From contig JAZGQO010000011.1 in the NCBI GenBank assembly GCA_036850965.1, positions 61,815,281 through 61,879,280 of the forward strand: a stretch of 64,000 nucleotides of DNA, in the 5' to 3' direction. Position 1 is the stretch's first letter; each line of letters opens with the position of its first letter. This DNA comes from Patella caerulea (taxonomy: Eukaryota). The notes under the pieces were generated by a model that searched no databases, had not been told where the DNA came from, and saw nothing but the letters and a program-made list of their open reading frames with translations. Positions 8,978-53,714 of the stretch are shown here, piece by piece. The translations under genes and the position numbers were made by a program.

Positions 8978-9004
8978 TTAAATAAATATTTTTAAGCTAC
9001 CTGC

Positions 9005-12468: not shown

Positions 12469-12515
12469 TATAGTGAAGATCTTTGTTTATTTGTCCAAAT
12501 CTGAGATGGAAAAAG

Positions 12516-12655
12516 GGGGGGTTGGGATGGCCTAATGGACTAGAGTGCCGCACTTCGACCTCTAGCTGGCCGGTCACCTCTGGCTTGCGGCTGTGGTTTC
12601 GAGCCCTGGTGTGAGCGTATGTGGCATGGAGATAGGGGCGCCTTCTCAACCTCGT

Positions 12656-12686
<31 letters not shown>

Positions 12687-12809
12687 ACTGCTAAAGACCC
12701 CTACGCGCAAGCGAATTATTGAAATAAAATTAAACCATATGTTAGTCCCGAAATGACCCAGTTTGTGTCGAGTGGACGTTAAACCCTATTTCTCTCTCTC
12801 TCTCTCTCT
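12516..12809 (+). mobile_element. SINE-A (head type 2: gcctaatggactagagtgccgcacttcgacctctagctggccggtcacc...) with (CT)n tail and about 14-bp TSD tgagatggaaaaag
   Basis: Direct repeat ctgagatggaaaaag at 12502-12516 and 12808-12822. A different tRNA-like head from type 1 but the same 3' domain ...ctaaagacccctacgcgcaagcgaattattgaaataaaattaaaccatatgttagtcccgaaatgacccagtttgtgtcgagtggacgttaaacc. Confidence 0.8.
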
Positions 12810-13049: not shown

Positions 13050-13580
13050 TACATTATTTGTACCTGGTGTTGGCAAACAAATTTTCTCTGGAATTTGCAG
13101 GATGGTTTACCCTGGAGGACAAGGCATTGTCTAAGTACCATGGACACATTGATGAGCAAATAAAACACAAAATTTTTTGTACCTAGTGTTGGAAGAGAAA
13201 TTTTCTCTGGAATTTCCCGTTTGGTTTACCCTGGAGGGAGAGGCAGTATCTAGTCATTTGGTTTGGTCGAAAAATGGAGGTACCATGTACACATTGGTGA
13301 GCACGTAAAACACTAAATTTTTGGTACCTGGTGTTGGCAGAGAAATTTCCTCTTGAATCTCCAGTGTTGTTTACCCTGAAGGGCAAGGCAGTGTCTAATC
13401 ATTTGGATTGGTCGAAAAGCAGAGTTACCATGTACCCATTGGTGAGAACGTAAAAGAACACTTGAAATTTGTAATTTAGGCCATAGTGCCGCTGTCTGGG
13501 TACAATTTAATTCTGCATGGCTCTAGTCGTCTTCATTAGCCCAATCAGTGCAGAAAATGAAGACATAAAACCCAATGACC
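13050..13580 (+). repeat. SINE-B-derived tandem array: internal SINE-B segment (about 120-147 bp) repeated 3 times, then a normal SINE-B tail
   Basis: Units begin tttgtacctggtgttggca.agaaattt.ctct.gaat at about 13052, 13172 and 13319. The last unit runs into ...ccatagtgccgctgtctgggtac...cattagcccaatcagtgcagaaaatgaagacataaaaccc. Confidence 0.6.
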
Positions 13581-16165: not shown

Positions 16166-18199
16166 TTGCCAGCTTTTTATGACCTTATTCTTACTGTACT
16201 AAATAAACATGCCCCTATTAAAACCAGACGTGTAAAGTACCATACTCAACCCCCATGGTTTAATGATGAAATTAAAGATGCAAGAAAGAAGCGTGACTAT
16301 TATAAAATGATTGGAAATGACACTTTATATAAACAATGGCGTAATAAAACCAAAAAATTAATTGAGCAGGCTAAAACTGACCATGTTAAAGATATCATCA
16401 TAAATAAAAAAGACAATAAAACCATTTGGCAATATCTAAACTCTCTACAAGGAAAATCGTCATTAGGCCCAAATTACCCGCAAACTATCGAATATCATGA
16501 CTTTAAAACATCTGACCCTACTCAAATTACTGAATTTATGAATGAATATTTTACCAATATAACAGACTCTATAAAGCCTCCTTATAAACCGATCCAACAA
16601 CCACATATTATTCAAAATTATATAAATAACAAAGTCCCCCCAAATTTTCTATATGACTTACCTCCTATATCATTTCCAGAAGTACTGAAATATCTTAAAA
16701 ACCTACAACCAAAAAAGGCAACTGGTTTAGACAATCTTGGACCAAAAATTTTAAAAATGTCAGCTGAGGTGATTGCGAATCCACTAACTCATATTATTAA
16801 TTTATGTTTAACAAATTGTATTTTTCCTGATCAAATGAAAGAAGCAAAAATAGTGCCAATTTTTAAAAAAGGATCCAAAGAAATCATTTCCAATTATAGA
16901 CCAATTTCAATTTTACCAACCATTTCTAAAATTTTTGAGAAACATATATCTATCAATATTAAGTCCTACTTTGATAGTTTCAATTTATTTTATGTAAATC
17001 AGTCAGGTTTTAGAAAGTATCATTCATGTTCTACAGCACTAGTTCGAATTACTGATCACTGGCTTGAAGCTTTAGATCAAGGTAAACTAACAGGTGTTGT
17101 CTACCTGGATTTTAGTAAGGCTTTTGACCTTATTGATCACAAGCTCCTCCTTGACAAACTTGTATTATATAAATTTCATCCTAATCTGCTATATTTGATA
17201 AAATCTTATCTATCAAACCGAAATCAAAAAGTCTGTCTTGGTAATTTCCAATCAATACAAAGGAAACTAAAATGTGGTATTCCTCAGGGATCTATCCTTG
17301 GACCACTTTTATTTCTGATTTTCATAAATGATCTTCCACTTTTTACTAAAAATGTCATTCCCGAAATATTTGCTGATGATACTACCATTCATTTTTCTGA
17401 CAAGAATCTTGACTGCGTTCAAAGTTGTCTTCAAGAAGATTTAGACATTATCAGCCAATGGTGCAATGATAATGGTATGGTTATTAATATAAATAAAACT
17501 AAAAGTATGTTAATAAAAAACGTAAGAGACAGTGGAAAATGTATTTCCCTGTCCATTGGAAACCAGAAATTGGAGAATGTAACGGAAGCTGTCCTACTCG
17601 GAATTACAATAGATGATCACTTAGACTGGGGAAAACATATAATGAAGCTTCACTCTCTTGTTGGGTCAAAAATATATCTTCTAAATAGAATTAAAATAAA
17701 TCTACCTATAGAAACCCGAATTTTGTTTTATAATGCCTATATATTGTCTCATTTAGACTTTTGTAATATTGTTTGGGGTAATGCTTTCCAGAATAAAATT
17801 GACTTCCTATCTAAGCTTCAAAAACGTGCAGCGCGGAGTATCCTCGACGCGAAATATGACGCAAGATCGGCAGACTTGTTCTCTCAATTAAATTGGCTAA
17901 CTCTTGAACAACGAATTAAATATAACACTGGGATACTGACTTATAAAATTATGAATGGAAAATGTCCACATTACTTTCAAAATTATTTTTGCTTACAATC
18001 TTCTATGTCCACTACAATTCTCTGTCTACGTTCGGAAACAAAAAACTCATTACATCTTCCAAAATGTCGTATTGAGGCCATGAAAAGAACTTTTAAATAC
18101 AAGGCTAGCTTACTCTGGAATTCATTACCTCAGGTACTCAAACAATCTAACGATATATTGAGTTTTAAGACGGGACTGAAAAGGGAACTAAAATCTTAA
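16166..18199 (+). CDS. LINE reverse transcriptase ORF (677 aa; frame is open upstream to about 16121 without an ATG)
   Basis: Motifs PWFNDEI, YRPISILPTISKIFEKHI, FRKYHSCSTAL, GVVYLDFSKAFDLIDH, GIPQGSILGPLLFLIFINDL, FADDTTI. Confidence 0.85.
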   Translation: MPAFYDLILTVLNKHAPIKTRRVKYHTQPPWFNDEIKDARKKRDYYKMIGNDTLYKQWRNKTKKLIEQAKTDHVKDIIINKKDNKTIWQYLNSLQGKSSLGPNYPQTIEYHDFKTSDPTQITEFMNEYFTNITDSIKPPYKPIQQPHIIQNYINNKVPPNFLYDLPPISFPEVLKYLKNLQPKKATGLDNLGPKILKMSAEVIANPLTHIINLCLTNCIFPDQMKEAKIVPIFKKGSKEIISNYRPISILPTISKIFEKHISINIKSYFDSFNLFYVNQSGFRKYHSCSTALVRITDHWLEALDQGKLTGVVYLDFSKAFDLIDHKLLLDKLVLYKFHPNLLYLIKSYLSNRNQKVCLGNFQSIQRKLKCGIPQGSILGPLLFLIFINDLPLFTKNVIPEIFADDTTIHFSDKNLDCVQSCLQEDLDIISQWCNDNGMVININKTKSMLIKNVRDSGKCISLSIGNQKLENVTEAVLLGITIDDHLDWGKHIMKLHSLVGSKIYLLNRIKINLPIETRILFYNAYILSHLDFCNIVWGNAFQNKIDFLSKLQKRAARSILDAKYDARSADLFSQLNWLTLEQRIKYNTGILTYKIMNGKCPHYFQNYFCLQSSMSTTILCLRSETKNSLHLPKCRIEAMKRTFKYKASLLWNSLPQVLKQSNDILSFKTGLKRELKS

Positions 18200-22689: not shown

Positions 22690-22822
22690 CTACATCACTG
22701 CTAAAGACCCCTACGCGCAAGCGAATTATTGAAATACAATTAAACCATATGTTAGTCCCGAAATGACCTAGTTTGTGTTGAGTGAACGTTAAACCCCATT
22801 TCTTTCTCTCTCTCTCTCTCCC
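22690..22822 (+). mobile_element. SINE-A 3' fragment with (CT)n tail, preceded by (T)25
   Basis: ctaaagacccctacgcgcaagcgaattattgaaatacaattaaaccatatgttagtcccgaaatgacctagtttgtgttgagtgaacgttaaacc, then ctctctc. Confidence 0.65.
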
Positions 22823-23450: not shown

Positions 23451-26405
23451 CCCTTTAGTTCTACCGAGTGACCCATTACCAACTTACATAATATAATCGT
23501 CATAATAAAAAACCGGGATTTTATCAGCTAGATCATAAAACAAGATGAATTATATTTTATATCTGAAACAGAAAAGGCGTAGGTTTATTTCACCAAACCA
23601 AATATCACAGATAGGTTTATTTCTACATTTAACAAAAGTCAGGGTTGAAACAATAAATATGAATTATTATCTACTTCGTTTAGTCGTTACATGTTACGGG
23701 TTAATTTCAAAAACTTGACCTTTATCAAGGTGTATTAATAGGCCTTAAGGCAAAAATTTTGCCACCACTTGGCAGATTATGGCGATAACTTGCAACTAAA
23801 ATTGTTTATGTTGAATATGTAATTAAATATGAACTTATTAAAATCTGATATATTTTCATATTATTTTGTTTTTTTGTATTTTATCTTTTGAAAACTTTTT
23901 AAGAACATGTAAAATGTTGACGATATGATTTTGATGACTCATTAGGTCATTTTGGGAATAAAATGTCGTGTGTCTTTGTTTTCTATAATTTCCATTGCCC
24001 CCCAGTTGTGTTTTGTTGAGGTACGAAACCGCACGAAAAACCATAAAAATCCCACAATATGAGGCCACCATTGCAGATTCGTTAGTCTATATAATATTTA
24101 AGTTTTACTTTTCTTAAACTAATTTCGGAAATGTTGGCTGCTCAGTGCCGCTACGGCCTTATCTTAGTTATATCTCCAACAGTGGATCTTTAACGTGCTG
24201 GTCAATAATACATCGGGGTCGGAGGTTTCCCTGCTCCATCCCCATCCTGCCCCATCCCCAGCCTCTGACAGTGACAAGGGGGAAACTAGACTGAAAAGAC
24301 CCGAAGAAACTTGCTCAACCAACCCCAGGAACGAGCCCAGGAATACCTTACTAAGCGAACCACCGCGCACAGACGGAAAAAATAAAATTTTCCAAACTTT
24401 ATTTGTTGATTCAGAAGATTAAAATTTCCGGTTTCCATTTGTTTTATCTGGGAAATGATTTAACACTTTTGACGTTTGAAGATATTTATCTTAAAAAATG
24501 TTATAGTGGCCATAACTGGAGATATCTCGACATAAAATAATTAATTAAAAATATTTCAAATTTTCACATACAAAGATTTGATAAGTCTGAAGCCTGATGG
24601 TCATCACCCACTGTTATCGCTTTGTGTCCCTTTAAACATTCGTATACAACATTCATCCCACACAATATGAATTATCTGTTTGATGTGGATTACTTGTGAT
24701 CGATCTATCGATTAAATGATAAATATTTATTGACCTATAGCTGTATATTTGTAACAAGTTTAATATCAAACATTTAGTCTCGATGCTCGATATAGAAATA
24801 CGATAAATATCACCGATAACTTATCGCTTCATTCTATAATCGATTCGTATCACGACATGATCAAATTTATATTTATATATTATTCATAATCAAGCCTGAG
24901 TTACACAGTTATGGTTGGTGTTCATTCGAACAATACTAACATGAAAAAAAAGACCCCCCCCCCCTCCCCCCCCCCAAAAAAAAATAAAATAAAATAAAAT
25001 AAAATAAAACGAAATGGGGTTTATAATGTCGGTCTACACAGAAAGGAAATACAACTCCCGCACTAATATTCTCGATTAGAATGATGAGAGATACATAAAA
25101 GTCGACCTTGTACTCGTAATAATAACTTATCTCCTGTATTAGTCTATATCATCCATACATATATTCGATTTGTCTGGATGGGTCCTCAAAATTTGACGGA
25201 AAATAGGTCATTGTCTGGATTATCCAGTCTTTCAAGTTACCACGTACTGAATCTATCAAAACAGCACGCTTGTCAACGATGACACTCTTTCAAATTTTGT
25301 TTGTAAAGGTTTCAATTGAAATGGTAATTTCCTCTCGTCATGAATCAGACGTATGGCTTCTCACAATCTTCTTAATTCTTCATCGCGATCCATGCTTATT
25401 CCTCGTCTCTATTTTTGTTTCTAATAATAGATGTGCCAAGTGAATTGTGGGATATATTACAACCACGCTTTATAGAATCTAGCAAAATCGGCCCGGCTTC
25501 ATAAGATCTATCACTTACCGATACTTTAGCCAAAAGGTTCCATTGCCCATGCGTAACCAAATGTTTGGTTTTTTATGTGGTAGATCATCCAGTAATTTCG
25601 TCAAAAATTGAGAACCGACCCAGACCCTCCGTGCGTTGAAGACTGGGGGTTCTGGATGACCGAGACTACTTCTGTATTTGCGTCATATCCGGAACATGCG
25701 TACTGGCGTTGCGAATCAGCCATGGACACTGTTGTTACGGTATTCTAAATGAGTAAAATGGTGGATGGCCTGTACCATGTCTTTTCTTTCACTGTTTGGT
25801 CTCTTTTCAATATAAATTTTACTTCATTTTTAAAGATAAAAAAGTATTGTACGTCATAATGCGCGGATATGGTTATTTTTTTTTTTCATTTTGAAAAATT
25901 CAATAATAGGTCTAGTCCATAATAGGCCATAGGACAACAAGATTAGAGGAGTGGGTAGGGTGGGGTCGCCGAGATCAAGCTGGCAGACAATAGCTAGCAG
26001 ACATTAAGACCTTTTACCAGACAATTAGGGACAATCAACTCAGCATACAATAAGGAATTTGCTGGATGACCATGACTTCAGTGAAATCACGTGCTCTGTT
26101 TGGGCTAATCCGAGCCTTCGATAAATAAAATAAATTGAAAGTAGTCTATTTTTAGTAACTATGTTATTGTCTGATGGCGACGAATTTTTAGATCAAAATA
26201 AAAAGGCTATTTATCTCTTCTAAAGTGTGTTATTATGAATGTGCCAGAAAATAACAAGTACATTTAAAGAGCCATTGAAACTTACTTTCCGGTGATGTAT
26301 GACACGATAACTGGAATTTCGTATTAAGATCCTTATTTTGACATTAAACACTCGCCTCGCCTCGCCCCACCCCACCACACCGCTCGAATTCAGTTAGTGC
26401 AAGAG

Positions 26406-26407
<2 letters not shown>

Positions 26408-26438
<31 letters not shown>
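26408..26438. repeat. (T)31 homopolymer inside the left terminal flank, mirrored by (A)36 at 37970-38005
   Basis: Direct read. Confidence 0.9.
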
Positions 26439-26547
26439 CTATTTTAATAAAATATACATGCATTCCGCCTTAAGGTAAACTAAATAAAAGATTGACTTTA
26501 ATTTTGGAGCAAGTCTCCCATTCTTACTCCCCCCCCCGACTCCCTTC

Positions 26548-29437
26548 GCTTATTAAGATAAGTAAATATGAATGTGCCAGAAAATTATTTATATATTTGA
26601 AGAGAGCGTTCAATGTGCTTTTCAGTGATATATAACACCATGGCTGGAATTTCGTATTAAGAACCGTATTTTGGCATTGAATGCCCCCTCCCCCCTCACT
26701 ATAGAGTTAAAAGTACCACCCAACTTTGATCGCTTATTAAGGTAAGTAAATATGAATGTGCCAGAAAATTATTTATATATTTGAAAAGAGCATTTAACGA
26801 GCTTTTCAGCGATATATAACATCATGGCTGGAATTTCGTACTAAGAACCGTATTTTGGCATTGAATACCCCCCCCCTCCTTCACAATAGAGTTAAAAGTA
26901 CCACCCAACTTTGATCGCTTATTAAGGTAAGTAAATATGAATGTGCCAGAAAATTATTTATATATTTGAAGAGAGCATTCAACGTGCTTTTCAGTGATAT
27001 ATAACACAATGGCTGGAATTTCGTACTAAGATCCGTATTTTGGTATTGAATACCCCCCCCCCATCTTAGAGTTAAGTATCACCAAACTTTGATCGCTTAT
27101 TAAGGTAAGTAAATATGAATGTGCCAGAAAATTATGTATATATTTGAAGAGAACATTCAATGAGCTTTTCAGTGATATATAACATCATGGCTGGAATTTC
27201 GTACTAAGAACCGTATTTTGGCATTGAATACCCCCCCCCCCACTTCACTATAGAGTTAAAAGTACCACCCAACTTTGATCGCTTATTAAGGTAAGTAAAT
27301 ATGAATGTGCCAGAAAATTATGTATATATTTGAAGAGAAGATTCAATGAGCTTTTCAGTGATATATAACATCATGGCTGGAATTTCGTACTAAGAACCGT
27401 ATTTTGGCATTGAATACCCCCGCCCCTTACTATAGAGTTAAAAGTACCACCGAACTTTGATCTCTTATTAAGGTTAGTAAATATGAATGTGCCAGAAAAT
27501 TATTTATATATTTGAAGAGAGCATTAAACGTGCTTTTCAGTGATATATAACATCATGGCTGGAATTTCGTACTAAGAACCGTATTTTGGCATTGAATACC
27601 CCCGCCCCCTCCACTATAGAGTTAAAAGTACAACCCAATTTTGATCGCTTATTAACGTAAGTAAATATGAATGTGCCAGAAAATTATTTATATATTTGAA
27701 GAGACCATTCAACGTTCTTCTCAGCGATATATAACATCATGGCTGGAATTTCGTACTAAGAACCGTATTTTGGCATTGAATACCCCCGCCCCTTACTATA
27801 GAGTTAAAAGTACCACCCAACTTTGATCGCTTATTAAGGTAAGTAGATATGAATGTGCCAGAAAATTATTTATATATTTGAAGAGACCATTCAACGTGCT
27901 TTTCAGCGATATATAACATCATGGCTGGAATTTCGTACTAAGAACCGTATTTTGGCATTGAATACCCCCACCCCCACCTTCACTATAGAGTTAAAAGTAC
28001 CACCCAACTTTGATCGCTTATTAAGGTAAGTAAATATGAATGTGCCAGAAAATTATGTATATATTTGAAGAGAACATTCAATGGGCTTTTCATTGATATA
28101 TAACATCATGGCTGGAATTTCGTACTAAGAACCGTATTTTGGCTTTGAATACCCCCCCCTTCACTATAGAGTTAAAAGTACCCCCAACTTTGATCGCTTA
28201 TTAAGGTAAGTAAATATGAATGTGCCAGAAAATTATTTATATATTTGAAGAGAGCATTAAACACGCGTTTCAGTGATATATAACACAATGGCTGGAATTT
28301 CGTACTAAGATCCGTATTTTGGCATTGAATACCCCCCCCCATCTTAGGGTTAAGTATCACCCAACTTTGATCGCTTATTAAGGTAAGTAAATATGAATGT
28401 GCCAGAAAATTATTTATATATTTGAAGAGAGCATTAAACACGCGTTTCACTGATATATAACATAATGGCTGGAATTTCGTACTAAGATCCGTATTTTGGC
28501 ATTGAATACCCCCCCCCCCCCCCACATCTTAGAGTTAAGTATCACCCAACTTTGATCGCTTATTAAGGTAAGTAAATATGAATGTGCCAGAAAATTATGT
28601 ATATATTTGAAGAGAACATTCAATGAGCTTTTCAGTGATATATAACATCATGGCTGGAATTTCGTACTAAGAACCGTATTTTGACATTGAATCCCCCCCC
28701 TTCACTATAGAGTTAAAAGTACCACCCAACTTTGATGGCTTATTAAGGTAAGTAAATATGAATGTGCCAGAAAATTATTTATATATTTGAAGAGAACATT
28801 CAATGAGCTTTTCAGTGATATATAACATCTTGACTGAAATTTCGTACTAAGAACCGTATTTTGGCATTGAATCCCCCTCCCCTTCACTATAGAGTTAAAA
28901 GTACAACCCAACTTTGATCGCTTATTAAGGTAAGTAAATATAAATGTGCCAGAAAATTATTTATATATTTGAAGAGAGCATTCAACGGGCTTTTCAGTGA
29001 TATACATCATCATGGCTGGAATTTCGTACTAAGAATCGTATTTTGGCATTGAATACCCCCCCCCCACCTTCACTATAGAGTTAAAAGTACCACCCAGCTG
29101 TGATCGCTTATTAAAGTAAGTAGATATGAATGTGCCAGAAAATTATTTATATATTTGAAGAGAGCATTAAACACGCGTTTCAGTGATATATAACATCATG
29201 GCTTGAATTTCGTACTAAGAACCGTATTTTGACATTGGATTCCCCCCCCCCCTTCACTATAGAGTTAAAAGTACCACCCAACTTTGATCGCTTATTAAAG
29301 TAAGTAAATATGAATGTGCCAGAAAATTATTTATATATTTGAAGAGACCATTCAACGTGCTTTTCAGTGATATAGAACATCATGGCTGGAATTTCGTACT
29401 AAGGACCGTATTTTGGCATTGAATCATATCTACTTAC
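26548..29437 (+). repeat. satellite array, about 178-185-bp monomer, about 16 copies, forward orientation
   Basis: Monomer cttattaaggtaagtaaatatgaatgtgccagaaaattatttatatatttgaagaga.cattcaa.g.gcttttcagtgatatataacatcatggctggaatttcgtactaagaaccgtattttggcattgaata(C)n..ttcactatagagttaaaagtaccacccaactttgatcg. The poly-C tract length varies between monomers. Confidence 0.9.
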
Positions 29438-30179
29438 CTTAATAAGCTATAGTGAAGGGGAGGGGTTATTCAATGCCAAAATACGATTCTTAATAGGAAA
29501 TTATATATCACTGAAAAGCTCATTGAATGTTCTCTTCGAATATATAAATAATCTTCTGGCACATTCATATTTACTTACCTTAATAAGCGATCAAAGTTGG
29601 GTGGTACTTTTAACTCTATAGTGAAGGGGGGGGGGTATTCAATGCCAAAATACGGTTCTTAGTACGAAATTCCAGCTATGATGTTATATGTCGCTGAAAA
29701 GCTCATTGAATGTTCTCTTCAAATTTTCTGGCACATTCATATTTACTTACCTTAATAAGCGATCAAAGTTGGGTGGTACTTTTAACTCTATAGTGAAGGG
29801 GGGGTATTAATGCCAAAATACGGTTCTAAGCACGAAATTCCAGCCAAGATGTTATATATCACTGAAAAGCTCATTGGATGTTCTCTTCAAATATATAAAT
29901 AATTTTCTGGCACATTCATATCTACTTACTTTAATAAGCGATCAAAGTTGGGTGGTACTTTTAACTCTATAGTGAAGGGGAGGGGTTATTCAATGCCAAA
30001 ATACGATTCTTAGTACGAAATTCCAGCCATGATGTTATATATCACTGAAAAGCACGTTTACTTACCTTAATAAGCGATCAAAGTTGGGTTGTACTTTTAA
30101 CTCTATAGGGAAGGGGGGTTGGTATTAATGCCAAAGTACGGTTCTAAGCACGAAATTCCAGCCAAGATGTTATATATCA
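29438..30179 (-). repeat. the same satellite in reverse orientation, about 4 copies, head-to-head with the forward array
   Basis: Orientation switches at about 29437. The first reverse copy lacks the 28-bp segment gatcaaagttgggtggtacttttaactc. Confidence 0.85.
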
Positions 30180-31257
30180 TAGACTGTCGTCTGTCAGTAG
30201 CTATCGTTTCAAAAAATTTCTATAAAATGGGTTTAGTTGTAAAGTCACACATTAGTAAAATGTGAATTTTTATGGATAAAAAGCCGCCTTCCCGCTTCTA
30301 GAATGTCCCAGTTTTTAGAAACGAGTCGTCGCAAGTTTCTGTTCGCGCCATGAAGTTTATCAACCATTATTTACACCTGATGCATATCATTAAAACAACC
30401 AACCAATCAAAAACACTCTAGAGCCAATTTGACCTCAAGTTCACAGGTCAAAAGGTGAGTCTGAGTTAGCGTGTTTACTTTAAGACGACGAAGTGCCTCA
30501 TCCACCTCGTAGACAAAGATTGTGGAAACCTGTTTGAATTTACAGATACCAGTTGGAATAAGGTTGTTTTAAGTTTTAAAGAATGGACAAATCTTGATGG
30601 CAACGAGCTAAAAGTGTGCCAACAATATAAAGATGTATTAATGGTAAGTTTATCAACTAAATCAAACTAAAATTGAAAGTAGAGTCGCCATTTTATTTTT
30701 CAGCGAAACACAGAATGATAGGCGGATTAAATTTTATAGACACCTGTACTTATCACAAATGATCGGGACTGTACAACGCAACGAGAGCTTACGTCCGTAT
30801 ATAATATTTCTTGTTTGTTGTCATTGCTGTGTGCAAGTTGAAGTTACGATAAATAATAATAATGTTTGTTGACATTCACATTGTATAGTCTCGTTATATA
30901 GTTCATAGATAGGTTTGTTTTAAAATCGATAGCATTCACGTGCTAGCCTTTGGTTATATTTTATTAACCCCAGATTGTCTAAGTGTCTTTTCACAAATCA
31001 AGTGCAGACAGGTGGCAGTGTCTTATTGTTTTTCATAAAAGAAAAGTAATTTTTATTATGGATATTTGTTGCCACCTAAATTCTTCTCTCAGGTTCTAAT
31101 TTGCTTATTTTGTTTATGTGTGCAATAAAATTAGGAGTCAGTATGTTTGTATTTATAGGGAATAAAGATGATGCACTATGTGACTATGGGTTTATGGCTA
31201 TCATTCCAAGTGTTATTCGAGATTCACAGACAGAACAAAGATTGAACGAGCTACTAA

Positions 31258-31492
31258 AAGAGTTGCATTAGGCGACAGTCTGGTGAGAAGCAAACAAGTG
31301 ATGAGAGTCAATCCACCTCTAGAGAAGGTTTGCGATCAGCCTCCACTAAATCATCAACCACCCAAGCTGTCCACCTGCGAGGACATGTCTTTCCTCCTCT
31401 GGGCATTATCTGCAAGAAAATACCTTTGTTCTACAGGTGTCAGAATAAGAATGTCTCTGATAAGCTGGTTTTAGCAGAAATTAAAGATGGGG
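31258..31492 (+). CDS. candidate coding exon inside the nested TIR element (...STKSSTTQAVHLRGHVFPPLGIICKKIPLFYRCQNKNVSDKLVLAEIKDG)
   Basis: Open frame from a stop at 31255 to donor GG|GTAAGT at 31493. The phase-1 leftover joins the next candidate exon in frame. Confidence 0.3.
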
Positions 31493-31974
31493 GTAAGTTT
31501 TTATTATTTGTTCAACCGTTGTGATTTAGTATTGTCCCCCCCACCCTCCTTTCCCTTTCCTGGCTATGCCCAGTGTTACCTAGTGGAATAGGCCCATCGA
31601 CCCTCCTCAGCGTGTCGTAAAAGGCATTTATTGGGGAGAGTGGTCGGGTGGCCGATAGGTGTTATCTATCAGTCTGTCATCAATAGTCGAGGGTATGAGT
31701 CTCATTCTCTGCGATCTCAATGAAAACGTGTGGGAGTAGCCTATCCAAACACGCAGGGTTATGTACATGTATTTACCAGGTCTGCCAAAAGTTGTCTAGT
31801 TCATTGTTAAAAGTAGGCTGCTACATACAAAGCCTATTATACACATAAAACTGTTGCATAAAGAATTTTATGGGTTTTTTTATTTATGCATATGTAACCA
31901 GAAAACGAATATGCATTCTACTGCTAGTTGGTTTATGATATCCATGATATTTACAATTTTCCATATTTTTTTAG

Positions 31975-32135
31975 GGCGACTTAGAGAAGTAGCAATTAAG
32001 AAAGAAGATGAAACCATTCTCAGGCACATCAGAGATAAAGACTGTGTTGCTGTTGAAGTTAGGTACCATCTACGATGCTACAAGAATTATGTTCGATTCC
32101 TAACAAGAAAACCCACAGTTCAGTCTTCTGGGTAA
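31975..32135 (+). CDS. candidate second exon (G)RLREVAIKKEDETILRHIRDKDCVAVEVRYHLRCYKNYVRFLTRKPTVQSSG*
   Basis: Acceptor ccatatttttttag|gg. Frame is continuous with 31258-31492. Ends at TAA 32133-32135, or at alternative donor TGG|GTAAAT. Confidence 0.3.
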
Positions 32136-32429
32136 ATTTATTTCATACTTGTAGTAATTGTTGTGTCCTTGTGGCTTGTTGTTATATCTATTTTATATCA
32201 TAGGCCTACATAGGCAACTAGTGGGTGGGAAGGGATTTATATAGCCAAGTGGTTACAAAAAGGTCTGTCATCAATGGACTTAAATTTGAATCCCACTATC
32301 AGCGACCTCAATGACAAGGTGTGGGAGTAGCCGATTTATTCTATACTCTATAGTATAAGTAGTGCTGGTATATTTGATGGCAAGGGAATTGGCACAAAAT
32401 GACTAGATTGTGGTGTCCAAATGCACTAA

Positions 32430-33110
32430 AACATCCGTTCTAAGAATGTGTCAACATTTTTTACTAGCACTTGTACTAGTTTTGAAATGTTTTAAATTAC
32501 AATACACAGACATGATTTATATCTATTTTAACCTTTAAAAAAATATATCACTAGATAAAGATGAATAAATATGTACATACTTTTCCATCTTTTGATTTTA
32601 GTATTTTGTTTAACTGTTTGTTTTACCTGTATTTTACATACTAACTACATGTATAATATTCAACTACTTTATGTCCAGATTTAATTGAATTATTATTTTA
32701 ACAAAACAAAGGGTTTTCTTTATTTTAAAATTAGTTTTGAAATGTTGTTTTTAATTATAATACACAGGCATGATTCATATCTTTAAAAGATAACCAAACA
32801 ATATATCGAAAGATAAATAAATGTGTAAATACTTTTCCATTTGTTGATATTAGTACTTTGTTTAACTGTTTTTATATTTTCTTATATTTTATATTTTAAC
32901 TATTTAAGCATTAATTATTGCACAACTGTTACAGCAACATTTATAAAAATTATTGATATAACAGTTATTAAAAATGAAAAAAATGTATTCTGTATTTTAA
33001 AAAAATATTGATATTGAAATGTTGTTGTAAATTGCAATACAAAGGCCTAATTTATATTTATTTAAACCTTTAATACTAGTCATTACATAAAAGATTAATG
33101 TTTTAAATTT
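32430..33110. repeat. AT-rich tandem repeat, about 300-bp unit, about 2.5 copies, inside the nested element
   Basis: Units start near 32430, 32730 and 33005 (...gttttgaaatgtt.t.taaattacaatacacag.catgatttatatct...ttttccat.tt.tgat.ttagta.tttgtttaactgtt...). Confidence 0.5.
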
Positions 33111-33757
33111 GTTTTCATTCTTTGTTTGGTGATAGGGTGGGTTGCCAAGGAGAAATTTAGTCTTTGTTCAATATTTATAGGTCATTTATGATACGAGTTA
33201 TCTCCCCTTATACCTTTTTACCTGGGACCTGTCTTTGAAATATCACGTTTATGTATTGTTTTTTGGTTGAAATCAAATATTTCTATGCAATTATCAAATT
33301 TATGTATGATTTCTGATAATAAATTAAATTCAATATCAATACAATGACGCTGTATTTTCATAAAAAGACAAAAACATGCTACGATGTGCAACATTACTGC
33401 TTTGTGGGCGCTTATAATTGGTCCTGTGCATATACAAATTGAGATATTTCCATAATTTTTTTTTTCAAATGTTGCTGTGCACTTTGGCAGTACACACGAA
33501 AAAAATTATTCACCTGCAGTTATTTTATCATCCAAAATCACAACGTCAAAGTCATGTTAGACAAGCATGATAAAGTGACCGAGACCCTGGGTAAATGGGT
33601 AATATTTTAAAAACTGGCAATATCTGAAGGTGGGAATATGGATTTTCCATCACTAGAAACCTTGTATTATAAGAAAATGGCAACATTTTTTAGACCCAGG
33701 GGGGGTGCAACAAAAATTAATTTTTAAGCACATTTTCCCTATACAGACGACAGTCTA

Positions 33758-36700
33758 TCACTGAAAAGCTCATTGAATGTTCTCTTCAAATATATAAATA
33801 ATTTTCTGGCACATTCATATTTACTTACCTTAATAAGCGATCAAAGTTGGGTGGTACTTTTAACTCTATAGTGAAGGGGGGAGGATTCAATGTCAAAATA
33901 CGGTTCTTAGTACGAAATTCCAGTCAAGATGTTATATATCACTGAAAAGCTCATTGGATGTTCTCCTCAAATATATAAATAATTTTCTGGCACATTTATA
34001 TTTACTTACCTTAATAAGCGATCAAAGTTGGGTGGTACTTTTAACTCTATAGTGAAGGGGAGGGGGATTCAATGTCAAAATACGGTTCTTAGTACGAAAT
34101 TCCAGCCATGATGTTATATATCACTGAAAAGTACGCTGAATGCTCTTTTCAAATATATACATAATTTTCTAGCACATTCATATTTACTTACCTTAATAAG
34201 CGATCAAAGTTGGGTGATACTTAACTCTAAGATGGGGGGGGGTATTCAATGCCAAAATACGGATCTTAGTACGAAATTCCAGCCATTATGTTATATATCA
34301 CTGAAACGCGTGTTTAATGCTCTCTTCAAATATATAAATAATTTTCTGGCACATTCATATCTACTTACTTTAATAAGCGATCAAAGTTGGGTGGTACTTT
34401 TAACTCTATAGTGAAGGGGGGGGGGTATTCAATGCCAAAATACGGTTCTTAGTACGAAATTCCAGCCAAGATGTTATATATCACTGAAAAGTGCATTGAA
34501 TGTTCTCTTCAAATATATAAATAATTTTCTGGCACATTCATATCTACTTACCTTAATAAGCGATCAAAGTTGGGTGGTACTTTTAACTCTATAGTGAAGG
34601 TGGGGGTGGGGGTATTCAATGCCAAAATACGGTTCTTAGTACGAAATTCCAGCCATGATGTTATATATCGCTGAAAAGCACGTTGAATGGTTTCTTCAAA
34701 TATATAAATAATTTTCTGGCACATTCATATTTACTTACCTTAATAAGCGATCAAAGTTGGGTGGTACTTTTAACTCTATAGTAAGGGGCGGGGGTATTCA
34801 ATGCCAAAATACGGTTCTTAGTACGAAATTCCAGCCATGATGTTATATATCGCTGAAAAGCACGTTGAATGGTCTCTTCAAATATATAAATAATTTTCTG
34901 GCACATTCATATTTACTTACCTTAATAAGCGATCAAAGTTGGGTGGTACTTTTAACTCTATAGTGAAGGGGGCGGGGGTATTCAATGCCAAAATACGGTT
35001 CTTAGTACGAAATTCCAGCCATGATGTTATATATCACTGAAAAGCACGTTGAATGGTCTCTTCAAATATATAAATAATTTTCTGGCACATTCATATTTAC
35101 TAACCTTAATAAGAGATCAAAGTTCGGTGGTACTTTTAACTCTATAGTAAGGGGCGGGGGTATTCAATGCCAAAATACGGTTCTTAGTACGAAATTCCAG
35201 CCATGATGTTATATATCACTGAAAAGCTCATTGAATCTTCTCTTCAAATATATAAATAATTTTCTGGCACATTCATATCTACTTACTTTAATAAGCGATC
35301 AAAGTTGGGTGGTACTTTTAACTCTATAGTGAAGGGGGGGGGGTATTCAATGCCAAAATACGGTTCTTAGTACGAAATTCCAGCCAAGATGTTATATATC
35401 ACTGAAAAGCGCATTGAATGTTCTCTTCAAATATATAAATAATTTTCTGGCACATTCATATCTACTTACCTTAATAAGCGATCAAAGTTGGGTGGTACTT
35501 TTAACTCTATAGTGAAGGTGGGGGGTGGGGGTATTCAATGCCAAAATACGGTTTTTAGTACGAAATTCCAGCCATGATATTATATATCGCTGAAAAGCAC
35601 GTTGAATGGTCTCTTCAAATATATAAATAATTTTCTGGCACATTCATATTTACTTACCTTAATAAGCGATCAAAGTTGGGTGGTACTTTTAACTCTATAG
35701 TGAAGGTGGGGGGGTATTCAATGTCAAAATATGGTTCTTAGTGCGAAATTCCAGCCATGATAATATATATCACTGAAAAGCACGTTGAATGCTCTCTTCA
35801 AATATATAAATAATTTTCTGGCACATTCATATTTACTTACCTTAATAAGCGATCAAAGTTGGGTGGTTCTTTTAACTCTATAGTGAAGGGAGGGGGGTAT
35901 TCAATGCCAAAATACGGTTCTTAGTACGAAATTCCAGCTATGATGTTATATATCGCTGAAAAGCTCGTTAAATGTTCTTTTCAAATATATAAATAATTTT
36001 CTGGCACATTCATATTTACTTACGTCAAAAAGCGATCAAAGTTGGGTGGTACTTTTAACTCTGTAGTGAAGGGGAGGGGTTATTCAATGTCAAAATACGG
36101 TTCTTAGTACGAAATTCCAGCCATGATGATATATATCACTGAAAAGCCCGTTGAATGCTCTCTTCAAATATATAAATAACTTTCTGGCACATTCTTATTT
36201 ACTTACCTTAATAAGCGATCAAAGTTGGGTGGTACTTTTAACTCTATAGTGAAGGGGGGGGGGTATTCAATGCCAAAATACTGTTCTTAGTACGAAATTC
36301 CAGCCATGATGTTATATATCACTGAAAAGCACGTTGAATGCTCTTTTCAAATATATAAATAATTTTCTGGCACATTCATATTTACTTACCTTAATAAGCG
36401 ATCAACGTTGGGTGGTACTTATAACTCTATAGTGAAGGTTGGGGGGGAGGTTTATTCAATGCCAAAATACGGTTCTTAGTACGAAATTCCAGCCATGATG
36501 TTATATATCACTGAAAAGCTCATTGAATGTTCTCTTCAAATATATACATACTTTTCTGGCACATTCATATTTACTTACCTTAATAAGCGATCAAAGTTGG
36601 GTGATACTTAACTCTAAGATGGGGGGGGGGTATTCAATGCCAAAATACGGATCTTAGTACGAAATTCCAGCCATTATGTTATATATCACTGAAACGCGTG

Positions 36701-36944
36701 TTTAATGCTCTCTTCAAATATATAAATAATTTTCTGGCACATTCATATCTACTTACTTTAATAAGCGATCAAAGTTGGGTGGTACTTTTAACTCTATAGT
36801 GAAGGGGAGGGGTTATTCAATGCCAAAATACGATTCTTAGTACGAAATTCCAGCCATGATGTTATATATCACTGAAAAGCACGTTGAATGCTCTTTTCAA
36901 ATATATAAATAATTTTCTGGCACATTCATATTTACTTACCTTAA
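33758..36944 (-). repeat. satellite array, reverse orientation, about 18 copies
   Basis: Same monomer as 26548-29437 in reverse complement. Confidence 0.9.
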
Positions 36945-37482
36945 ACATACATTATGGGAGAGCAAAAACTGACTTTAGTCGGTCTTCCTTTGAGCCTCAG
37001 ATGTCATAGAAATTATAAATTAGATCTTTATTTAAACAATAAGCCCAAAATGAACACTGTAGACCCCCGGATGGCTTGGATTGGGCTCGGATTAAAACAG
37101 GATTTCGTCGACTGATTTAATCACTATGGCGTCGTGGGTGGGGTTTCTCCGTGACGTTGACGTCATCTTCCGGAAATTATTCATAAAAGACAGTGATGAC
37201 CGAGGCTATACACAAGCTTCACTAGATACCGTTTAATCATTACTTGATGATCGAGACTATGTAGGTGGAGTTAACGCCTGTCAATCAACAATCGGCCATA
37301 GTGGGAAAAGGGTGTCGATGATTTTAACTACCATTTCTAGTAAAAAATTATAGTGGTAACAACTTTGTTCAGGATAAAGTTATTTGACTGAAATTTTCAA
37401 TATATTCATGTTTCAACATCTATTTTTGAACTTTTATAGCAAGAATGGCTAACTCCTTGTCAAAATCTCCCATAATGTATCT
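36945..37482 (-). mobile_element. TTAA-flanked MITE (538 bp) nested in a satellite monomer, TSD TTAA
   Basis: ccttaa|acatacattatgggagag... ...ctcccataatgtatct|ttaataagc. Uninterrupted monomer reads ccttaataagc. Internal gactgaaattttcaa is the reverse complement of the family core. Confidence 0.7.
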
Positions 37483-37870
37483 TTAATAAGCGATCAAAGT
37501 TGGGTGGTACTTTTAACTCTGTAGTGAAGGGGAGGGGGTATTCAATGCCAAAATACGGTTCTTAGTACGAAATTCCAGCCATGATGTTATATATCGCTGA
37601 AAGGCTCGTTAAATGCTCTTTTCAAATATATAGATAATTTTCTGGCACATTCATATTTACTTACCTTAATAAGCGATCAGAGTTGGGTGGTACTTTTAAC
37701 TCTAAAGTGAGGGGGGGGGGGGGGGGGCATTCAATGCCAAAATACGGTTCTTAATACGAAATTCCAGCCATGATGTTATATATCACTGAAAAGCACATTG
37801 AACGCTCTCTTCAAATATATAAATAATTTTCTGGCACATTCATATTTACTTACCTTAATAAGCGAAGGGA
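37483..37870 (-). repeat. satellite, reverse orientation, about 2 copies, adjoining the right terminal flank
   Basis: Direct read. Confidence 0.85.
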
Positions 37871-37965
37871 GTCGGGGGGGGGGGGGTGTAAGAATGGGAG
37901 ACTTGCTCCAAAATTAAAGTCAATCTTTTATTTAGTTTACCTTAAGGCAGAATGCATGTATATTT

Positions 37966-38008
<43 letters not shown>

Positions 38009-38729
38009 CTCTTGGACAAACTGAATTCGAGCGGTGTGGTGGGGTGGGGCGAAGCGAGGCGAGTGTTTAATGTCAAAATAAGGATCTTAATACGAAATTC
38101 CAGTTATCGTGTCATACATCACCGGAAAGTAAGTTGCAATGGCTCTTTAAATGTACTTGTTATTTTCTGGCACATTCATAATAACACACTTTAGAAGAGA
38201 TAAATAGCCCTTTTATTTTGATTTAAAAATTCGTCGCCATCAGACAATAACATAGTTACTAAAAATAGACTACTTTCAATTTATTTTATTTATCGAAGGC
38301 TCGGATTAGCCCAAACAGAGCACGTGATTTCACTGAAGTCATGGTCATCCAGCAAATTCCTTATTGTATGCTGAGTTGATTTTCCCTAATTGTCTGGTAA
38401 AAGGTCTTAATGTCTGCTAGCTATTGTCTGCCAGCTTGATCTCGGCGGTGGGGTCGAAGCATTAAATTAATGGATTAAGTTATTTTTGGGGTATGTCATT
38501 TAAAAACACCTTTTTACACGGGCCAACCAATGCACCCTCCCTAAAGTCTTGATTCGTCCCGTTTATCAGGTGAATTACGGTAGATTGAATACTGATAGTG
38601 GTAACGTGATAAACACGATTCATACTTTATTGTTTTATTTAACATAGAATTCAACACCTGCCTTTCTCGTATGAAAAACATTATCATAAATATTTCACTA
38701 CAGTCTCGACGTCTTAATTAAAACCATAA

Positions 38730-39125
38730 ACAGACTGACGGACGGATGACTGACATTTTCAAAATGGAAGCTATGAATTGTTTAGGGCAAAGTCAGGCGA
38801 CTGTCAGAAATGAAACAATCGAACAGATAGACGGGCGTACGGTTGACATTTTCAGTTGATGCTACGAAATGTTTAGACGCCAGGCGACTTTCAGGAATGA
38901 AACAATCGAACTTTTGTCAAATAATCATCAAGACTTTCTGAATAGAACGCAACTAGGCCTTCCGAATTGAATTGACACGAAACTTTCCGAATAGAAGCCA
39001 CAAGACCCTCCGAATTGAAGTAACATAGGATTTTCCGAATAGAATCAACGAGGCTTTCCGGACAGAAGTAACACGAGTTTGTCAGAATAAAGCCATAACG
39101 AGACTTTGAGAATAGAAGCTATATG
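38730..39125. repeat. two adjacent tandem repeats: about 100-bp unit x2 (38730-38925) and about 35-bp unit x6 (38925-39125, ...ctttccgaatagaa.c.a.ga....)
   Basis: Direct repetition of cagactgacggacggatgactgacattttc... / cagatagacgggcgtacggttgacattttc..., and of the (ccgaat.gaa...) units. Confidence 0.6.
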
Positions 39126-39144
39126 AGGGGTGGGTGTGGTGAGT

Positions 39145-39360
39145 TATCATCCACTCGACACAAATCCGGTAATTTCGGAACTAACGTATGGTTCAAATTT
39201 CATTTCAATAATTCGATTGCGCGTAGAGATTCTAAGCAGAAGGCGGAAACTTGAGGACCCTGAGGGAACCCGGACGACCATACTCGTTCTTACGTATACA
39301 AGCGAGAAAGCTCAACTGCACACTTGACTCAATGAAAGATCTTATGATTTATACCGCGCT
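39145..39360 (-). mobile_element. SINE-A (diverged, reverse orientation)
   Basis: ...ccactcgacacaaatccggtaatttcggaactaacgtatggttcaaatttcatttcaataattcgattgcgcgtagag... Confidence 0.6.
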
Positions 39361-39433
39361 TCTCATCACCACCCCTCCTCTGAAATATATATGGAAGTAG
39401 ATACAAAGTTAGGTCATAGGTCCATTTTAAAGG

Positions 39434-39553
39434 GGAGAGAGAGAGAGAAATGGGATTTAGCGTCCACTCAACACAAACTAGGTCATTTCGGGACTAACGT
39501 ATGGTTTAATTTTTATTTCAATAATTCGCTTGCGCGTAGGGGTCTTTAGCAGT

Positions 39554-39584
<31 letters not shown>

Positions 39585-50770: not shown

Positions 50771-50813
<43 letters not shown>

Positions 50814-51060
50814 AGTTTAACGTCCACTCCATTCAAAACAAACTAGCTCATTTCGGGACTAATACATGGTTCAATTTTATTTCAATAATTCGCTTGTGCG
50901 TAGGGGTCTTTGGCGTAGGTGTAAACCCGAGCACCAGGAGAAAACCCACGAGGTTGTAAGGCGACACTACTCTTTGCCACGTGCAACCAGGAAATCCTTT
51001 ACATGCATGTCAATGCACGGTACCTTGATGTTTTGTCCCACCCCAAGGCCCTACGTCCTG
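50771..51060 (-). mobile_element. SINE-A (reverse orientation) with (GA)20
   Basis: (GA)n ttgagtttaacgtccactccattcaaaacaaactagctcatttcgggactaatacatggttcaattttatttcaataattcgcttgtgcgtaggggtctttgg... Confidence 0.7.
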
Positions 51061-53095: not shown

Positions 53096-53132
<37 letters not shown>

Positions 53133-53370
53133 GGGGTTTAACGTCCACTCGACACAAACCAGGTCATTTCGGGACTAACATATGGTTTATTTCTATTTCA
53201 ATAATTCGCTTGTGCGTTGGGGTCTTTAGCAGTGGGAGGAAACCGGAGTACCCGTAGGAAACCCACGAGGCGCCCCTATCTCCATGCCACATACGCCCAC
53301 ACCAGGGATCGAAACCACAGTCGCCAGCTAGAAGTGACCGGCGCGGCACTCTAGACCACTAGGCCACCCC
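53096..53370 (-). mobile_element. SINE-A head type 2 (reverse orientation) with (GA)17
   Basis: ...gatcgaaaccacagtcgccagctagaagtgaccggcgcggcactctagaccactaggccacccc. Confidence 0.8.
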
Positions 53371-53714
53371 CCACCCACACACCCACACCCATCCCTGTTA
53401 GGGGTGGGGTGGTCATGTGGTCTAACGCTTACGTTTTAGATCGTAAGGCATGTAACTGAGTTAGGTCGGGGAGCATGTAATGTCTCATGTGATTTCACCG
53501 TGTCTACCGTTTCATCAATCGTTTATAGAGCAATCGAATTCATTGAAATAAAATTGAACTATATTTTAGTCAGTGTTGATAGATGGAGGGCCGGGCAGAA
53601 CCAACATTTTCCGATAGTACGAAAAATCGGCGTCCTGTGTATTCTTAAAAGCACCTGGCATATAAAATTGGACGAAGAGGGAAGATTTTCAATCATAACA
53701 CATTGCATACGCGC

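What the first reader, a model, noticed from the sequence alone, without database searches (positions are those of the whole stretch)
25959..38455. 12.5-kb foldback-like element carrying inverted satellite arrays, flanked by an exact 9-bp direct repeat
The segment 25968-26545 is the reverse complement of 37870-38446 at about 98% identity. Between these terminal flanks lies an about 180-bp satellite in forward orientation (about 16 monomers) meeting the same satellite in reverse orientation (about 24 monomers). Immediately outside the inverted termini the 9-mer ggtggggtc occurs on both sides (25959-25967 and 38447-38455). An exact 9-bp TSD together with long TIRs built from tandem subrepeats and unique outer ends is the architecture of Foldback and Mutator-like elements, both of which make 9-bp TSDs. 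Each terminal flank also contains a degenerate satellite monomer (26200-26390) and a poly-T/poly-A tract, which suggests the internal array grew out of the terminus. A TIR element of this size carrying a satellite would be a mechanism for seeding satellite arrays at new loci. I cannot match it to any named family from the sequence alone.
Basis: partly seen in the sequence, partly recalled or inferred. Interest (0 to 1): 0.85.

Follow-up and report, generated by a model that had tools for sequence, protein, structure and literature searches.

The report
Foldback transposon with satellite-repeat arms
This is a real insertion of a non-coding "foldback" DNA transposon whose two mirror-image arms are built from a 183-bp satellite repeat; the type is already known from flies, nematodes and plants, so it is a clean new example and not a new kind of element.

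Summary
The terminal domains 25968-26545 and 37866-38446 are inverted copies at 97.4% identity. GGTGGGGTC occurs only twice in the 64 kb, directly abutting the two ends. A 183-bp satellite runs forward (15.8 copies), then reversed (about 24 copies).

One is 3.58 kb (30180-33757, 15-bp TIRs, TCA duplication). The other is a 538-bp TTAA-flanked MITE (36945-37482). Removing both restores intact monomers, leaving an 8.36-kb element with arms of 3.46 and 4.90 kb and almost no central loop.

The arms are true mirror copies. Their monomers match in mirror order at 96-99%, against a 93.5% background (0 of 2000 permutations reach this).

There is no ORF, so the element is non-autonomous. The best reading is a foldback-type cut-and-paste transposon moved in trans. 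The 9-bp duplication points to a Mutator/Phantom-like transposase, but nothing else does.

The architecture nearly duplicates Tetris of Drosophila virilis. No other copy or empty site could be found: the source genome, probably a mollusc, is absent from every searchable collection. Family membership, copy number and satellite seeding remain untested. It is a new member of a known kind, of moderate interest.

The parts
25959..25967 (+). Left copy of the 9-bp target-site duplication GGTGGGGTC
   Evidence: one of only two occurrences in the window, directly abutting the left terminus.
25968..26545 (+). Left terminal flanking domain (578 bp, non-satellite). It starts GCCGAGATCAAGCTGGCAGACAAT. It contains a 14-bp tandem subrepeat (25978-26005), CAGACAAT motifs (25984, 26018, and inverted at 26166), a proto-monomer (26205-26362) and a T31 tract (26408-26438).
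   Evidence: It is 97.4% identical to the reverse complement of 37866-38446.
26546..29424 (+). Left-arm satellite array: 15.8 forward monomers of about 183 bp
29425..29500 (.). Centre of the foldback. A forward monomer truncated at position 137 abuts short rearranged fragments of reverse monomers. There is no unique loop.
   Evidence: sequence; monomer coordinates.
29447..30179 (-). Right-arm satellite array, inner part (about 4.5 reverse monomers, some with deletions)
30180..33757 (.). Nested later insertion A, not part of the foldback element. It is 3,578 bp with perfect 15-bp TIRs TAGACTGTCGTCTGT and a TCA duplication (30177-30179 / 33758-33760). It carries exon-like fragments with no Pfam match.
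   Evidence: Its removal restores a full monomer.
33758..36944 (-). Right-arm satellite array, main part (about 17.4 reverse monomers)
36945..37482 (.). Nested later insertion B, not part of the foldback element. It is a 538-bp MITE with TIR A[C/G]ATACATTATGGGAG and a TTAA duplication (36941-36944 / 37483-37486). It belongs to a multi-copy family in this window.
   Evidence: Its removal restores a full monomer.
37483..37865 (-). Right-arm satellite array, outer two monomers
   Evidence: They pair with left monomers L1-L2 at 97%.
37866..38446 (-). Right terminal flanking domain (581 bp), an inverted copy of 25968-26545. It includes a proto-monomer (38066-38180) and an A37 tract (37970-38006).
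38447..38455 (+). Right copy of the 9-bp target-site duplication GGTGGGGTC

Best explanation
The segment is one intact insertion of a non-autonomous foldback-type class II (TIR, cut-and-paste) transposon.

Each arm is a very long terminal inverted repeat. It has a 578-bp unique outer domain that presumably carries the transposase recognition sites. Candidates for these sites are the first 64 identical bases, a 14-bp tandem subrepeat and reiterated CAGACAAT motifs. Behind the outer domain lies an array of 183-bp tandem repeats. The two arms meet almost directly, with no coding middle domain.

A transposase supplied in trans bound the two ends and excised the element. It integrated the element at a 9-bp staggered cut in the target GGTGGGGTC, and repair of that cut produced the direct duplication. 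The 9-bp stagger makes a Mutator-superfamily (Phantom/MULE-like) enzyme the most likely one.

After integration, four changes followed:
- The arms diverged by about 2.3%.
- The arms gained or lost whole monomers by unequal exchange.
- The palindrome centre was scrambled.
- Two unrelated transposons landed in the right arm.

Shown: the TIRs, the TSD, mirror colinearity of the arms, the lack of coding capacity, and the later nested insertions. Inferred: transposition in trans, the superfamily, and the role of the subterminal motifs.
For: - Sharp inverted termini at 97.4% identity.
- An exact 9-bp direct repeat directly outside both termini, found nowhere else in 64 kb. The per-site chance is 7e-7 to 4e-6.
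- The flanks outside the repeat are unrelated to each other and single-copy in the window.
- Monomers of the two arms match in mirror order at 96-99% against a 93.5% background. Chain score is 22.3 versus 15.3 +/- 1.7 in permutations, reached by 0 of 2000.
- There are only three ORFs of at least 70 aa in 25000-39500. Two run through repeat sequence and the third lies in nested element A. The satellite ORF has no homologue among 5.8 billion proteins.
- Two nested TEs with their own TIRs and TSDs sit in one arm only. Deleting them restores complete monomers. This shows the inverted structure is old and genuine.
- Subterminal reiterated motifs are present.
- Literature gives the same architecture, with 8-10-bp TSDs and no ORF, for Tetris (PMC4079207). 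It gives 9-bp TSDs plus a Phantom/MULE transposase for foldback-like Tm1 (PMC3169594). MULE groups occur in Mollusca (PMC6446971).
Against: - Only one copy is known. There is no other terminus or satellite monomer in the remaining 51.5 kb of the window.
- There are no real matches in the metagenome, prokaryote-genome or viral collections.
- No transposase lies in or near the element, so the superfamily rests on TSD length alone.
- A 10-bp or an asymmetric 8-bp parse of the duplication is formally possible.
- No empty site is available.
- The assembly cannot be checked against reads.
Confidence: 0.8

Rival explanations
1. It is the same kind of mobile element, but it belongs to another superfamily that makes 8-9-bp duplications (for example Merlin, or an atypical hAT/P foldback derivative such as Galileo) and not to Mutator/Phantom.
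For: The foldback architecture has evolved independently in several superfamilies (discussion in PMC4079207). The TSD could be parsed as 8 or 10 bp if one allows a 1-nt asymmetry at the ends. No transposase is available to decide.
Against: The only symmetric parse gives exactly 9 bp, the modal Mutator/Phantom/Tm1 value. From my own knowledge, hAT and P elements typically give 8 and 7-8 bp and have different terminal nucleotides.
Confidence: 0.12
2. It is not a transposon. It is a local inverted duplication (palindrome) of a satellite block, formed by fold-back priming or template switching during replication or repair, and the 9-mer is junction microhomology or chance.
For: Long palindromes with scrambled centres arise by such mechanisms, and the centre here is rearranged. 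Only one copy is known.
Against: A fold-back duplication would also invert the outer flank on one side. Here both arms stop at the same nucleotide of the same 578-bp domain, and the sequence outside is unrelated single-copy DNA bracketed by a direct 9-bp repeat. The chance of the 9-mer is below 1e-5.
Confidence: 0.04
3. It is an assembly artefact: a chimeric palindromic long read or a mis-join of two satellite-containing contigs created the inversion.
For: Satellite arrays and inverted repeats are classic sites of misassembly. No reads are available here.
Against: Artefactual palindromes have near-identical, symmetric arms. These arms differ by about 2.3% substitutions and by whole-monomer indels (3.46 versus 4.90 kb), and one arm carries two TE insertions with proper TSDs. 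A mis-join would not place matching 9-mers at both outer ends.
Confidence: 0.03
4. It is two independent head-to-head insertions of a unidirectional satellite-carrying element, such as a Helentron-type or pearl-like element of the kind that carries satellites in bivalves.
For: In oysters, dispersed satellite-like arrays are usually carried by Helentron-derived elements (PMC7492417, listed). The host appears mollusc-like.
Against: Two separate insertions cannot share one TSD bracketing the composite. Helentrons make no TSD and insert between T residues (my own knowledge), whereas the flanks here are C| and |G with a 9-bp duplication. The mirror colinearity of monomer variants indicates one ancestral inverted structure.
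Confidence: 0.01

Closest known systems
Tetris, foldback transposon of Drosophila virilis (Dias et al. 2014, PMC4079207)
   Same: Both have long TIRs made of an external flanking domain (up to 866 bp in Tetris, 578 bp here) followed by nucleosome-sized tandem repeats (about 220 bp in Tetris, 183 bp here). Both have 8-10-bp TSDs (9 here) and no ORF. In both, the flanking domain and the repeat share partial homology, which suggests a common origin. Tetris is linked to satellite DNA emergence.
   Different: The hosts are in different phyla, and no sequence relationship was tested. The arms here are 2-3 times longer (3.5-4.9 kb versus up to 1.7 kb), with 16-24 monomers each. There is no inner TIR domain and essentially no middle domain. 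The FD/repeat homology is much longer here (about 130-160 bp at 75%, versus 37 bp at 80%).
Drosophila melanogaster FB (Foldback) elements / Phantom subgroup of the Mutator superfamily
   Same: Both have a 9-bp TSD, arms built of tandem repeats that become regular inward from a unique terminus, arms of unequal length, and many copies without any central loop or coding sequence. These points about FB are from my own knowledge; the FB-MULE link is cited.
   Different: FB subrepeats are 10/20/31 bp, not 183 bp. No transposase is present here, so the Phantom link cannot be tested. There is no evidence of terminal sequence similarity.
Tm1, Mutator/Foldback family of root-knot nematodes (PMC3169594)
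   Same: Both have composite TIRs of variable length containing tandem repeats, mostly 9-bp TSDs, many non-coding derivatives, and TIR pairs within one element that are not identical (93% on average in Tm1, 97% here).
   Different: Tm1 repeats are about 14 bp and the elements are 1-2.6 kb. Tm1 has asymmetric 7-bp end motifs. An autonomous Tm1 copy with a Phantom-type transposase is known, but none is known here.
Satellite-carrying Helentron-derived and pearl-like elements of bivalves (PMC7492417, PMC5139131)
   Same: These are mobile elements that carry and disperse satellite-like tandem repeats of about 150-200 bp in mollusc genomes.
   Different: Those carry a few monomers in a single orientation, have no long TIRs and make no TSD. 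This element has inverted arrays, 578-bp inverted unique ends and a 9-bp TSD.

Membership tests
Foldback-type TIR transposons (structural class) | Very long terminal inverted repeats that make up most or all of the element | tested here: met
   After removal of the nested TEs, the arms of 3,457 and 4,899 bp make up the whole 8,356-bp element. Terminal domains are 97.4% identical. The arms are mirror-colinear.
Foldback-type TIR transposons (structural class) | TIRs are modular: a unique terminus plus internal tandem subrepeats, with variable repeat number between arms | tested here: met
   A 578-bp unique domain is followed by 15.8 versus about 24 monomers of 183 bp.
Foldback-type TIR transposons (structural class) | Flanked by a target-site duplication | tested here: met
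   Exact GGTGGGGTC on both sides, with only two occurrences in the window.
Foldback-type TIR transposons (structural class) | Repeated family: several copies at different loci with different TSDs | tested here: inconclusive
   There is no second copy in the window. Public collections that could be scanned do not contain the source genome.
Mutator superfamily (MULE / Phantom / Rehavkus) | TSD of 8-11 bp, modally 9 bp | tested here: met
   9 bp. Table 1 of PMC6446971 lists 9 bp for most groups.
Mutator superfamily (MULE / Phantom / Rehavkus) | Mobilised by a MULE-type DDE transposase that recognises the termini (an autonomous partner with the same TIRs) | not testable with these tools
   There is no transposase ORF in the element. 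No stop-free segment of 75 aa or more in the window resembles one by eye, and only eight selected peptides were scanned against Pfam.
Tetris-like elements | Sequence homology to Tetris/DAIBAM termini or TIR-220 repeats | not tested
The resemblance is architectural only.
Helentron / Helitron-derived satellite carriers | No TSD, insertion between T (or A/T) residues, asymmetric ends with a 3' hairpin | tested here: not met
   There is a 9-bp TSD, the flanking bases are C and G, and the 578-bp ends are symmetric and inverted.
Polinton/Maverick (long-TIR elements of 15-20 kb) | 6-bp TSD and coding capacity (pPolB, integrase, capsid genes) | tested here: not met
   The TSD is 9 bp and there are no ORFs beyond repeat-derived ones.

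The most novel reading that the evidence does not exclude
This element is one copy of a still-mobilisable foldback family that is both the birthplace and the vector of a 183-bp satellite in a mollusc-like genome. The proto-monomer in the terminal domain was amplified inside the TIRs, and transposition plus arm expansion then seeded arrays at many loci. That would be a foldback-to-satellite route outside insects, and an alternative to the Helentron route known in bivalves. The long inverted arrays could additionally act as hairpin-RNA/small-RNA sources or as fragile palindromes that drive rearrangements.
Probability: 0.25. Interest if true: 0.55.

Novelty: new member of a known kind. Interest (0 to 1): 0.35.

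Why it matters
The element is an unusually clean single-locus example of a transposon whose inverted arms are themselves satellite arrays of nucleosome-sized monomers. It has an intact target-site duplication and a proto-monomer preserved in the unique terminus. If the family proves multi-copy in its source genome, it would document a foldback-to-satellite route in a lophotrochozoan-type genome. So far that route is described mainly for Drosophila (Tetris), and mollusc satellite dispersal has been attributed to Helentron-like carriers. Practically, such 8-12-kb palindromic satellite elements are hotspots for misassembly, ectopic recombination and inversions, so annotating them matters for genome quality. 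On present evidence it adds a member to a known class and does not change the concept.

Tried and rejected
- **Published sequence:** an exact-string search of 8 million papers for pieces of the terminus and the monomer gave 0 hits.
- **Satellite ORF:** a search of the 117-aa satellite ORF against 5.8 billion proteins, meant to find satellite-bearing contigs, found nothing.
- **Exact-product look-ups:** look-ups of the RT ORF and of the ORF in the terminal domain found nothing on record.
- **Metagenome scan:** the terminal 21-mer gave 4 hits. All are 57-61% GC contigs that share only the 21-mer and diverge immediately on both sides, so they are chance matches.
- **Prokaryote-genome and viral scans:** a two-anchor satellite pattern and a 25-mer from the terminus both gave 0 hits.
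- **Host identification:** the LINE RT gave a best match of 56% to Patella caerulea, then about 45% to bivalves. FBXO31-like exons gave a best match of 57% to an unnamed sequence. The result is only 'mollusc-like, species not in the database'. A check against the mollusc SINE paper was uninformative.
- **RNA families:** Rfam gave 0 hits and tRNA scanning gave 0 hits.
- **Monomer folding:** the monomer as single-stranded DNA showed no excess structure, z = 0.04.
- **Nested element A:** Pfam scans of its exon-like pieces gave no family.
- **Literature:** a broad search for foldback elements in molluscs returned only irrelevant papers.
- **Considered and rejected:** nested element A as the 'middle domain' of the foldback. 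It has its own perfect TIRs and TSD, and excising it restores a monomer.
Full report
**Observation**

Reading both ends directly shows that 25968-26545 on the + strand and 38446-37866 on the - strand are the same 578-bp sequence. It begins GCCGAGATCAAGCTGGCAGACAATAGCTAGCAGAC. BLAST gives 97.4% identity over 578/582 bp, and the repeat finder gives a 485-nt gap-free core at 98%.

Directly outside both ends lies GGTGGGGTC, at 25959-25967 and 38447-38455, in direct orientation. These are the only two occurrences in the 64-kb window, where 0.13 would be expected. The probability of that 9-mer at one fixed position is 7e-7 given the base composition, or 4e-6 with uniform bases.

Inverted complementarity extends only one base beyond the termini, so the boundaries are sharp. 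The only symmetric parse gives a 9-bp duplication. A 10-bp parse or an asymmetric 8-bp parse needs a one-base asymmetry at the ends.

The flanks are not part of a local repeat. A reconstructed empty site matches nothing else in the window until a dispersed SINE-like repeat about 700 bp to the right.

**Internal anatomy**

TRF and BLAST with one monomer define the arrays:
- a forward array at 26546-29424, 15.8 copies of about 182 bp;
- reverse-orientation arrays at 29447-30179, 33758-36944 and 37483-37865.

The two gaps in the reverse array are later transposon insertions. The first-stage reader did not see them.

- **Element A (30180-33757, 3,578 bp).** It has perfect 15-bp TIRs, TAGACTGTCGTCTGT, and a TCA duplication.
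- **Element B (36945-37482, 538 bp).** It is a MITE with TIR A[C/G]ATACATTATGGGAG and a TTAA duplication. The same terminus preceded by TTAA recurs at 8577, 8981, 22181, 44555 and 54196, so it belongs to a multi-copy family.

Deleting each element together with one TSD copy restores uninterrupted 182-bp monomers. The foldback element proper is therefore 8,356 bp, with a left arm of 3,457 bp and a right arm of 4,899 bp.

At the centre (29425-29500), a forward monomer truncated at position 137 abuts short shuffled pieces of reverse monomers. There is no unique loop.

There are only three ORFs of at least 70 aa in 25000-39500. Two run through repeat sequence and the third lies in nested element A. 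The element has no coding capacity.

**Are the arms real mirror copies?**

I cut both arms into monomers and computed all pairwise identities. Mean identity is the same within the left arm (93.6%), within the right arm (93.3%) and between arms (93.5%).

Specific pairs stand out in mirror order: L1-R1 at 97%, L4 to L9 with R11 to R16 at 96-99%, and L11-R17 at 98%. A rare monomer variant (L3, L10, L11, L15 / R4, R17) also recurs in both arms.

An order-preserving chain scores 22.3. Permuting the right-arm order gives 15.3 +/- 1.7, and 0 of 2000 permutations reach the observed score. The opposite order scores 13.2.

The arms therefore descend from one inverted structure and have since gained or lost whole monomers. 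For example, R5-R10 have no left-arm partners.

Over the outer 950 bp the arms differ by 22 substitutions (about 2.3%) plus homopolymer-length changes. Only one difference falls in the outermost 223 bp. That deficit is marginal, with a Poisson P of about 0.04 by my own calculation.

**The terminal domain**

Positions 11-38 form a 14-bp tandem subrepeat, AGCTGGCAGACAAT / AGCTAGCAGACATT. CAGACAAT recurs at position 51 and, inverted, near position 199. Such reiterated subterminal motifs are what transposase-binding sites usually look like. This is an inference.

A weaker, more decayed partial copy may lie just upstream.

This region is followed by T31 (A37 in the other arm) and about 106 bp of unique sequence before the regular array begins.

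The direction of derivation cannot be decided from one copy. The proto-monomer may have been amplified into the satellite, or it may be a decayed edge monomer.

**Artefact and non-TE alternatives**

A chimeric-read palindrome would have near-identical symmetric arms. These arms differ in sequence and length, and one arm carries two TE insertions with their own TSDs.

A fold-back or template-switch duplication would also invert one flank. It would not end both arms at the same nucleotide bracketed by a direct repeat.

Two independent head-to-head insertions cannot share one TSD.

Helentron-type carriers are the usual satellite vectors in oysters (PMC7492417). From my own knowledge, they make no TSD and insert between T residues. 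That test is not met here.

**Search for relatives**

Nothing was found:
- no second terminus or monomer elsewhere in the window;
- no literature match to the sequences;
- no protein-space match to the satellite ORF;
- no exact-product records;
- four metagenome hits to the terminal 21-mer, all in 57-61% GC contigs that share only the 21-mer and so are chance matches;
- zero hits in the prokaryote-genome and viral collections.

The host is an animal. The window carries FBXO31-like exons at 693-4647, which hit Pfam PF12014. It also carries a 5'-truncated non-LTR RT whose best matches are molluscan: 56% to Patella caerulea, then about 45% to Pinctada and to lucinid-associated contigs.

The species itself is evidently absent from the databases. 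Copy number, alternative TSDs, an empty site and an autonomous partner could therefore not be tested.

**Comparison with known elements**

The architecture matches the foldback class. The closest described case is Tetris of Drosophila virilis. Tetris has an external flanking domain of up to 866 bp, then about 220-bp tandem repeats. It has 8-10-bp TSDs and no ORF. A stretch of homology between its flanking domain and its repeat was taken as the origin of the repeat, and the repeats also form free satellite arrays (PMC4079207).

Tm1 of root-knot nematodes links foldback-like composite TIRs and 9-bp TSDs to a Phantom/MULE transposase (PMC3169594). MULE groups, including molluscan ones, and the minisatellite-bearing Rehavkus group mostly make 9-bp TSDs (PMC6446971).

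The most likely mechanism is therefore trans-mobilisation by a Mutator-superfamily DDE transposase. This rests only on TSD length. From my own knowledge, Merlin makes 8-9-bp duplications and cannot be excluded.

The differences from Tetris and FB are quantitative:
- arms of 3.5-4.9 kb with 16-24 monomers each;
- virtually no middle domain;
- a much longer proto-monomer.

**Verdict**

The structural interpretation is right, but the stated size is inflated by two nested TEs. The family and superfamily assignment and the satellite-seeding idea are plausible but untested, and the concept is already published for Drosophila.

The element is a well-preserved new member of a known kind. Confidence is about 0.8 that it is a foldback-type transposon insertion, and roughly 0.5-0.6 that the transposase is MULE-like. 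Interest is 0.35.

Noticed in passing
window 30180-33757: A 3.58-kb TIR element is nested in the right arm, with perfect 15-bp TIRs TAGACTGTCGTCTGT and a 3-bp TCA duplication. It carries exon-like open segments with a repeated YHxxCYxxF motif (for example 31184-31240 and 31978-32132) and an internal duplication of about 300 bp (32477-32780 versus 32732-33057). It has no Pfam match and its superfamily is unknown. A similar terminus with 2 mismatches lies at 39764.
   Followed up: partly
window 36945-37482; also 8577-8981, 22181, 44555, 54196: A TTAA-targeting MITE family (terminus A[C/G]ATACATTATGGGAG, piggyBac- or Kolobok-like by TSD) has at least five termini in the window. 8577-8981 looks like a complete copy of about 400 bp flanked by TTAA.
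   Followed up: partly
window 693-956, 2236-2493, 4450-4647 (+): Three exons of an FBXO31-like gene (Pfam PF12014, cyclin D1 binding domain, E = 1e-37). The best database relative is only 57% identical, so the source species is not in the protein collection.
   Followed up: partly
window 16166-18199 (+): A 677-aa open reading frame of a 5'-truncated non-LTR retrotransposon (RVT_1; the endonuclease domain present in relatives is missing). The best hit is 56% to Patella caerulea, and many 40-45% hits are host contamination in bivalve-symbiont MAGs.
   Followed up: partly
window 12511-12804, 53116-53377, 57601-57811, 39141-39271, 39454-39584, 50795-50980, 22696-22814 and others: An abundant SINE-like repeat of about 290 bp, with at least 12 copies or fragments at 75-93% identity, adjoins a (GA)n/(TC)n microsatellite. 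ARAGORN finds no tRNA-like head. It was not classified.
   Followed up: no
window 26400-26545 and 37866-38010: Read on the minus strand, the innermost part of each terminal domain is about 106 bp of unique sequence ending in A31-A37. This resembles a short retroposed insert that predates the divergence of the two arms. No TSD for it was identified.
   Followed up: no
window 25968-26190 versus 38446-38224: The outermost 223 bp of the two termini differ at one position only, against about 2.9% further inward. The deficit is marginal (P about 0.04) and could be chance or arm-to-arm conversion.
   Followed up: partly
window 13135-13455; 6054-6636; 7741-7919: Other tandem repeats unrelated to the finding: a 145-bp repeat (2.2 copies), a degenerate 30-bp minisatellite (about 19 copies) and a 31-bp repeat (5.8 copies).
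   Followed up: no
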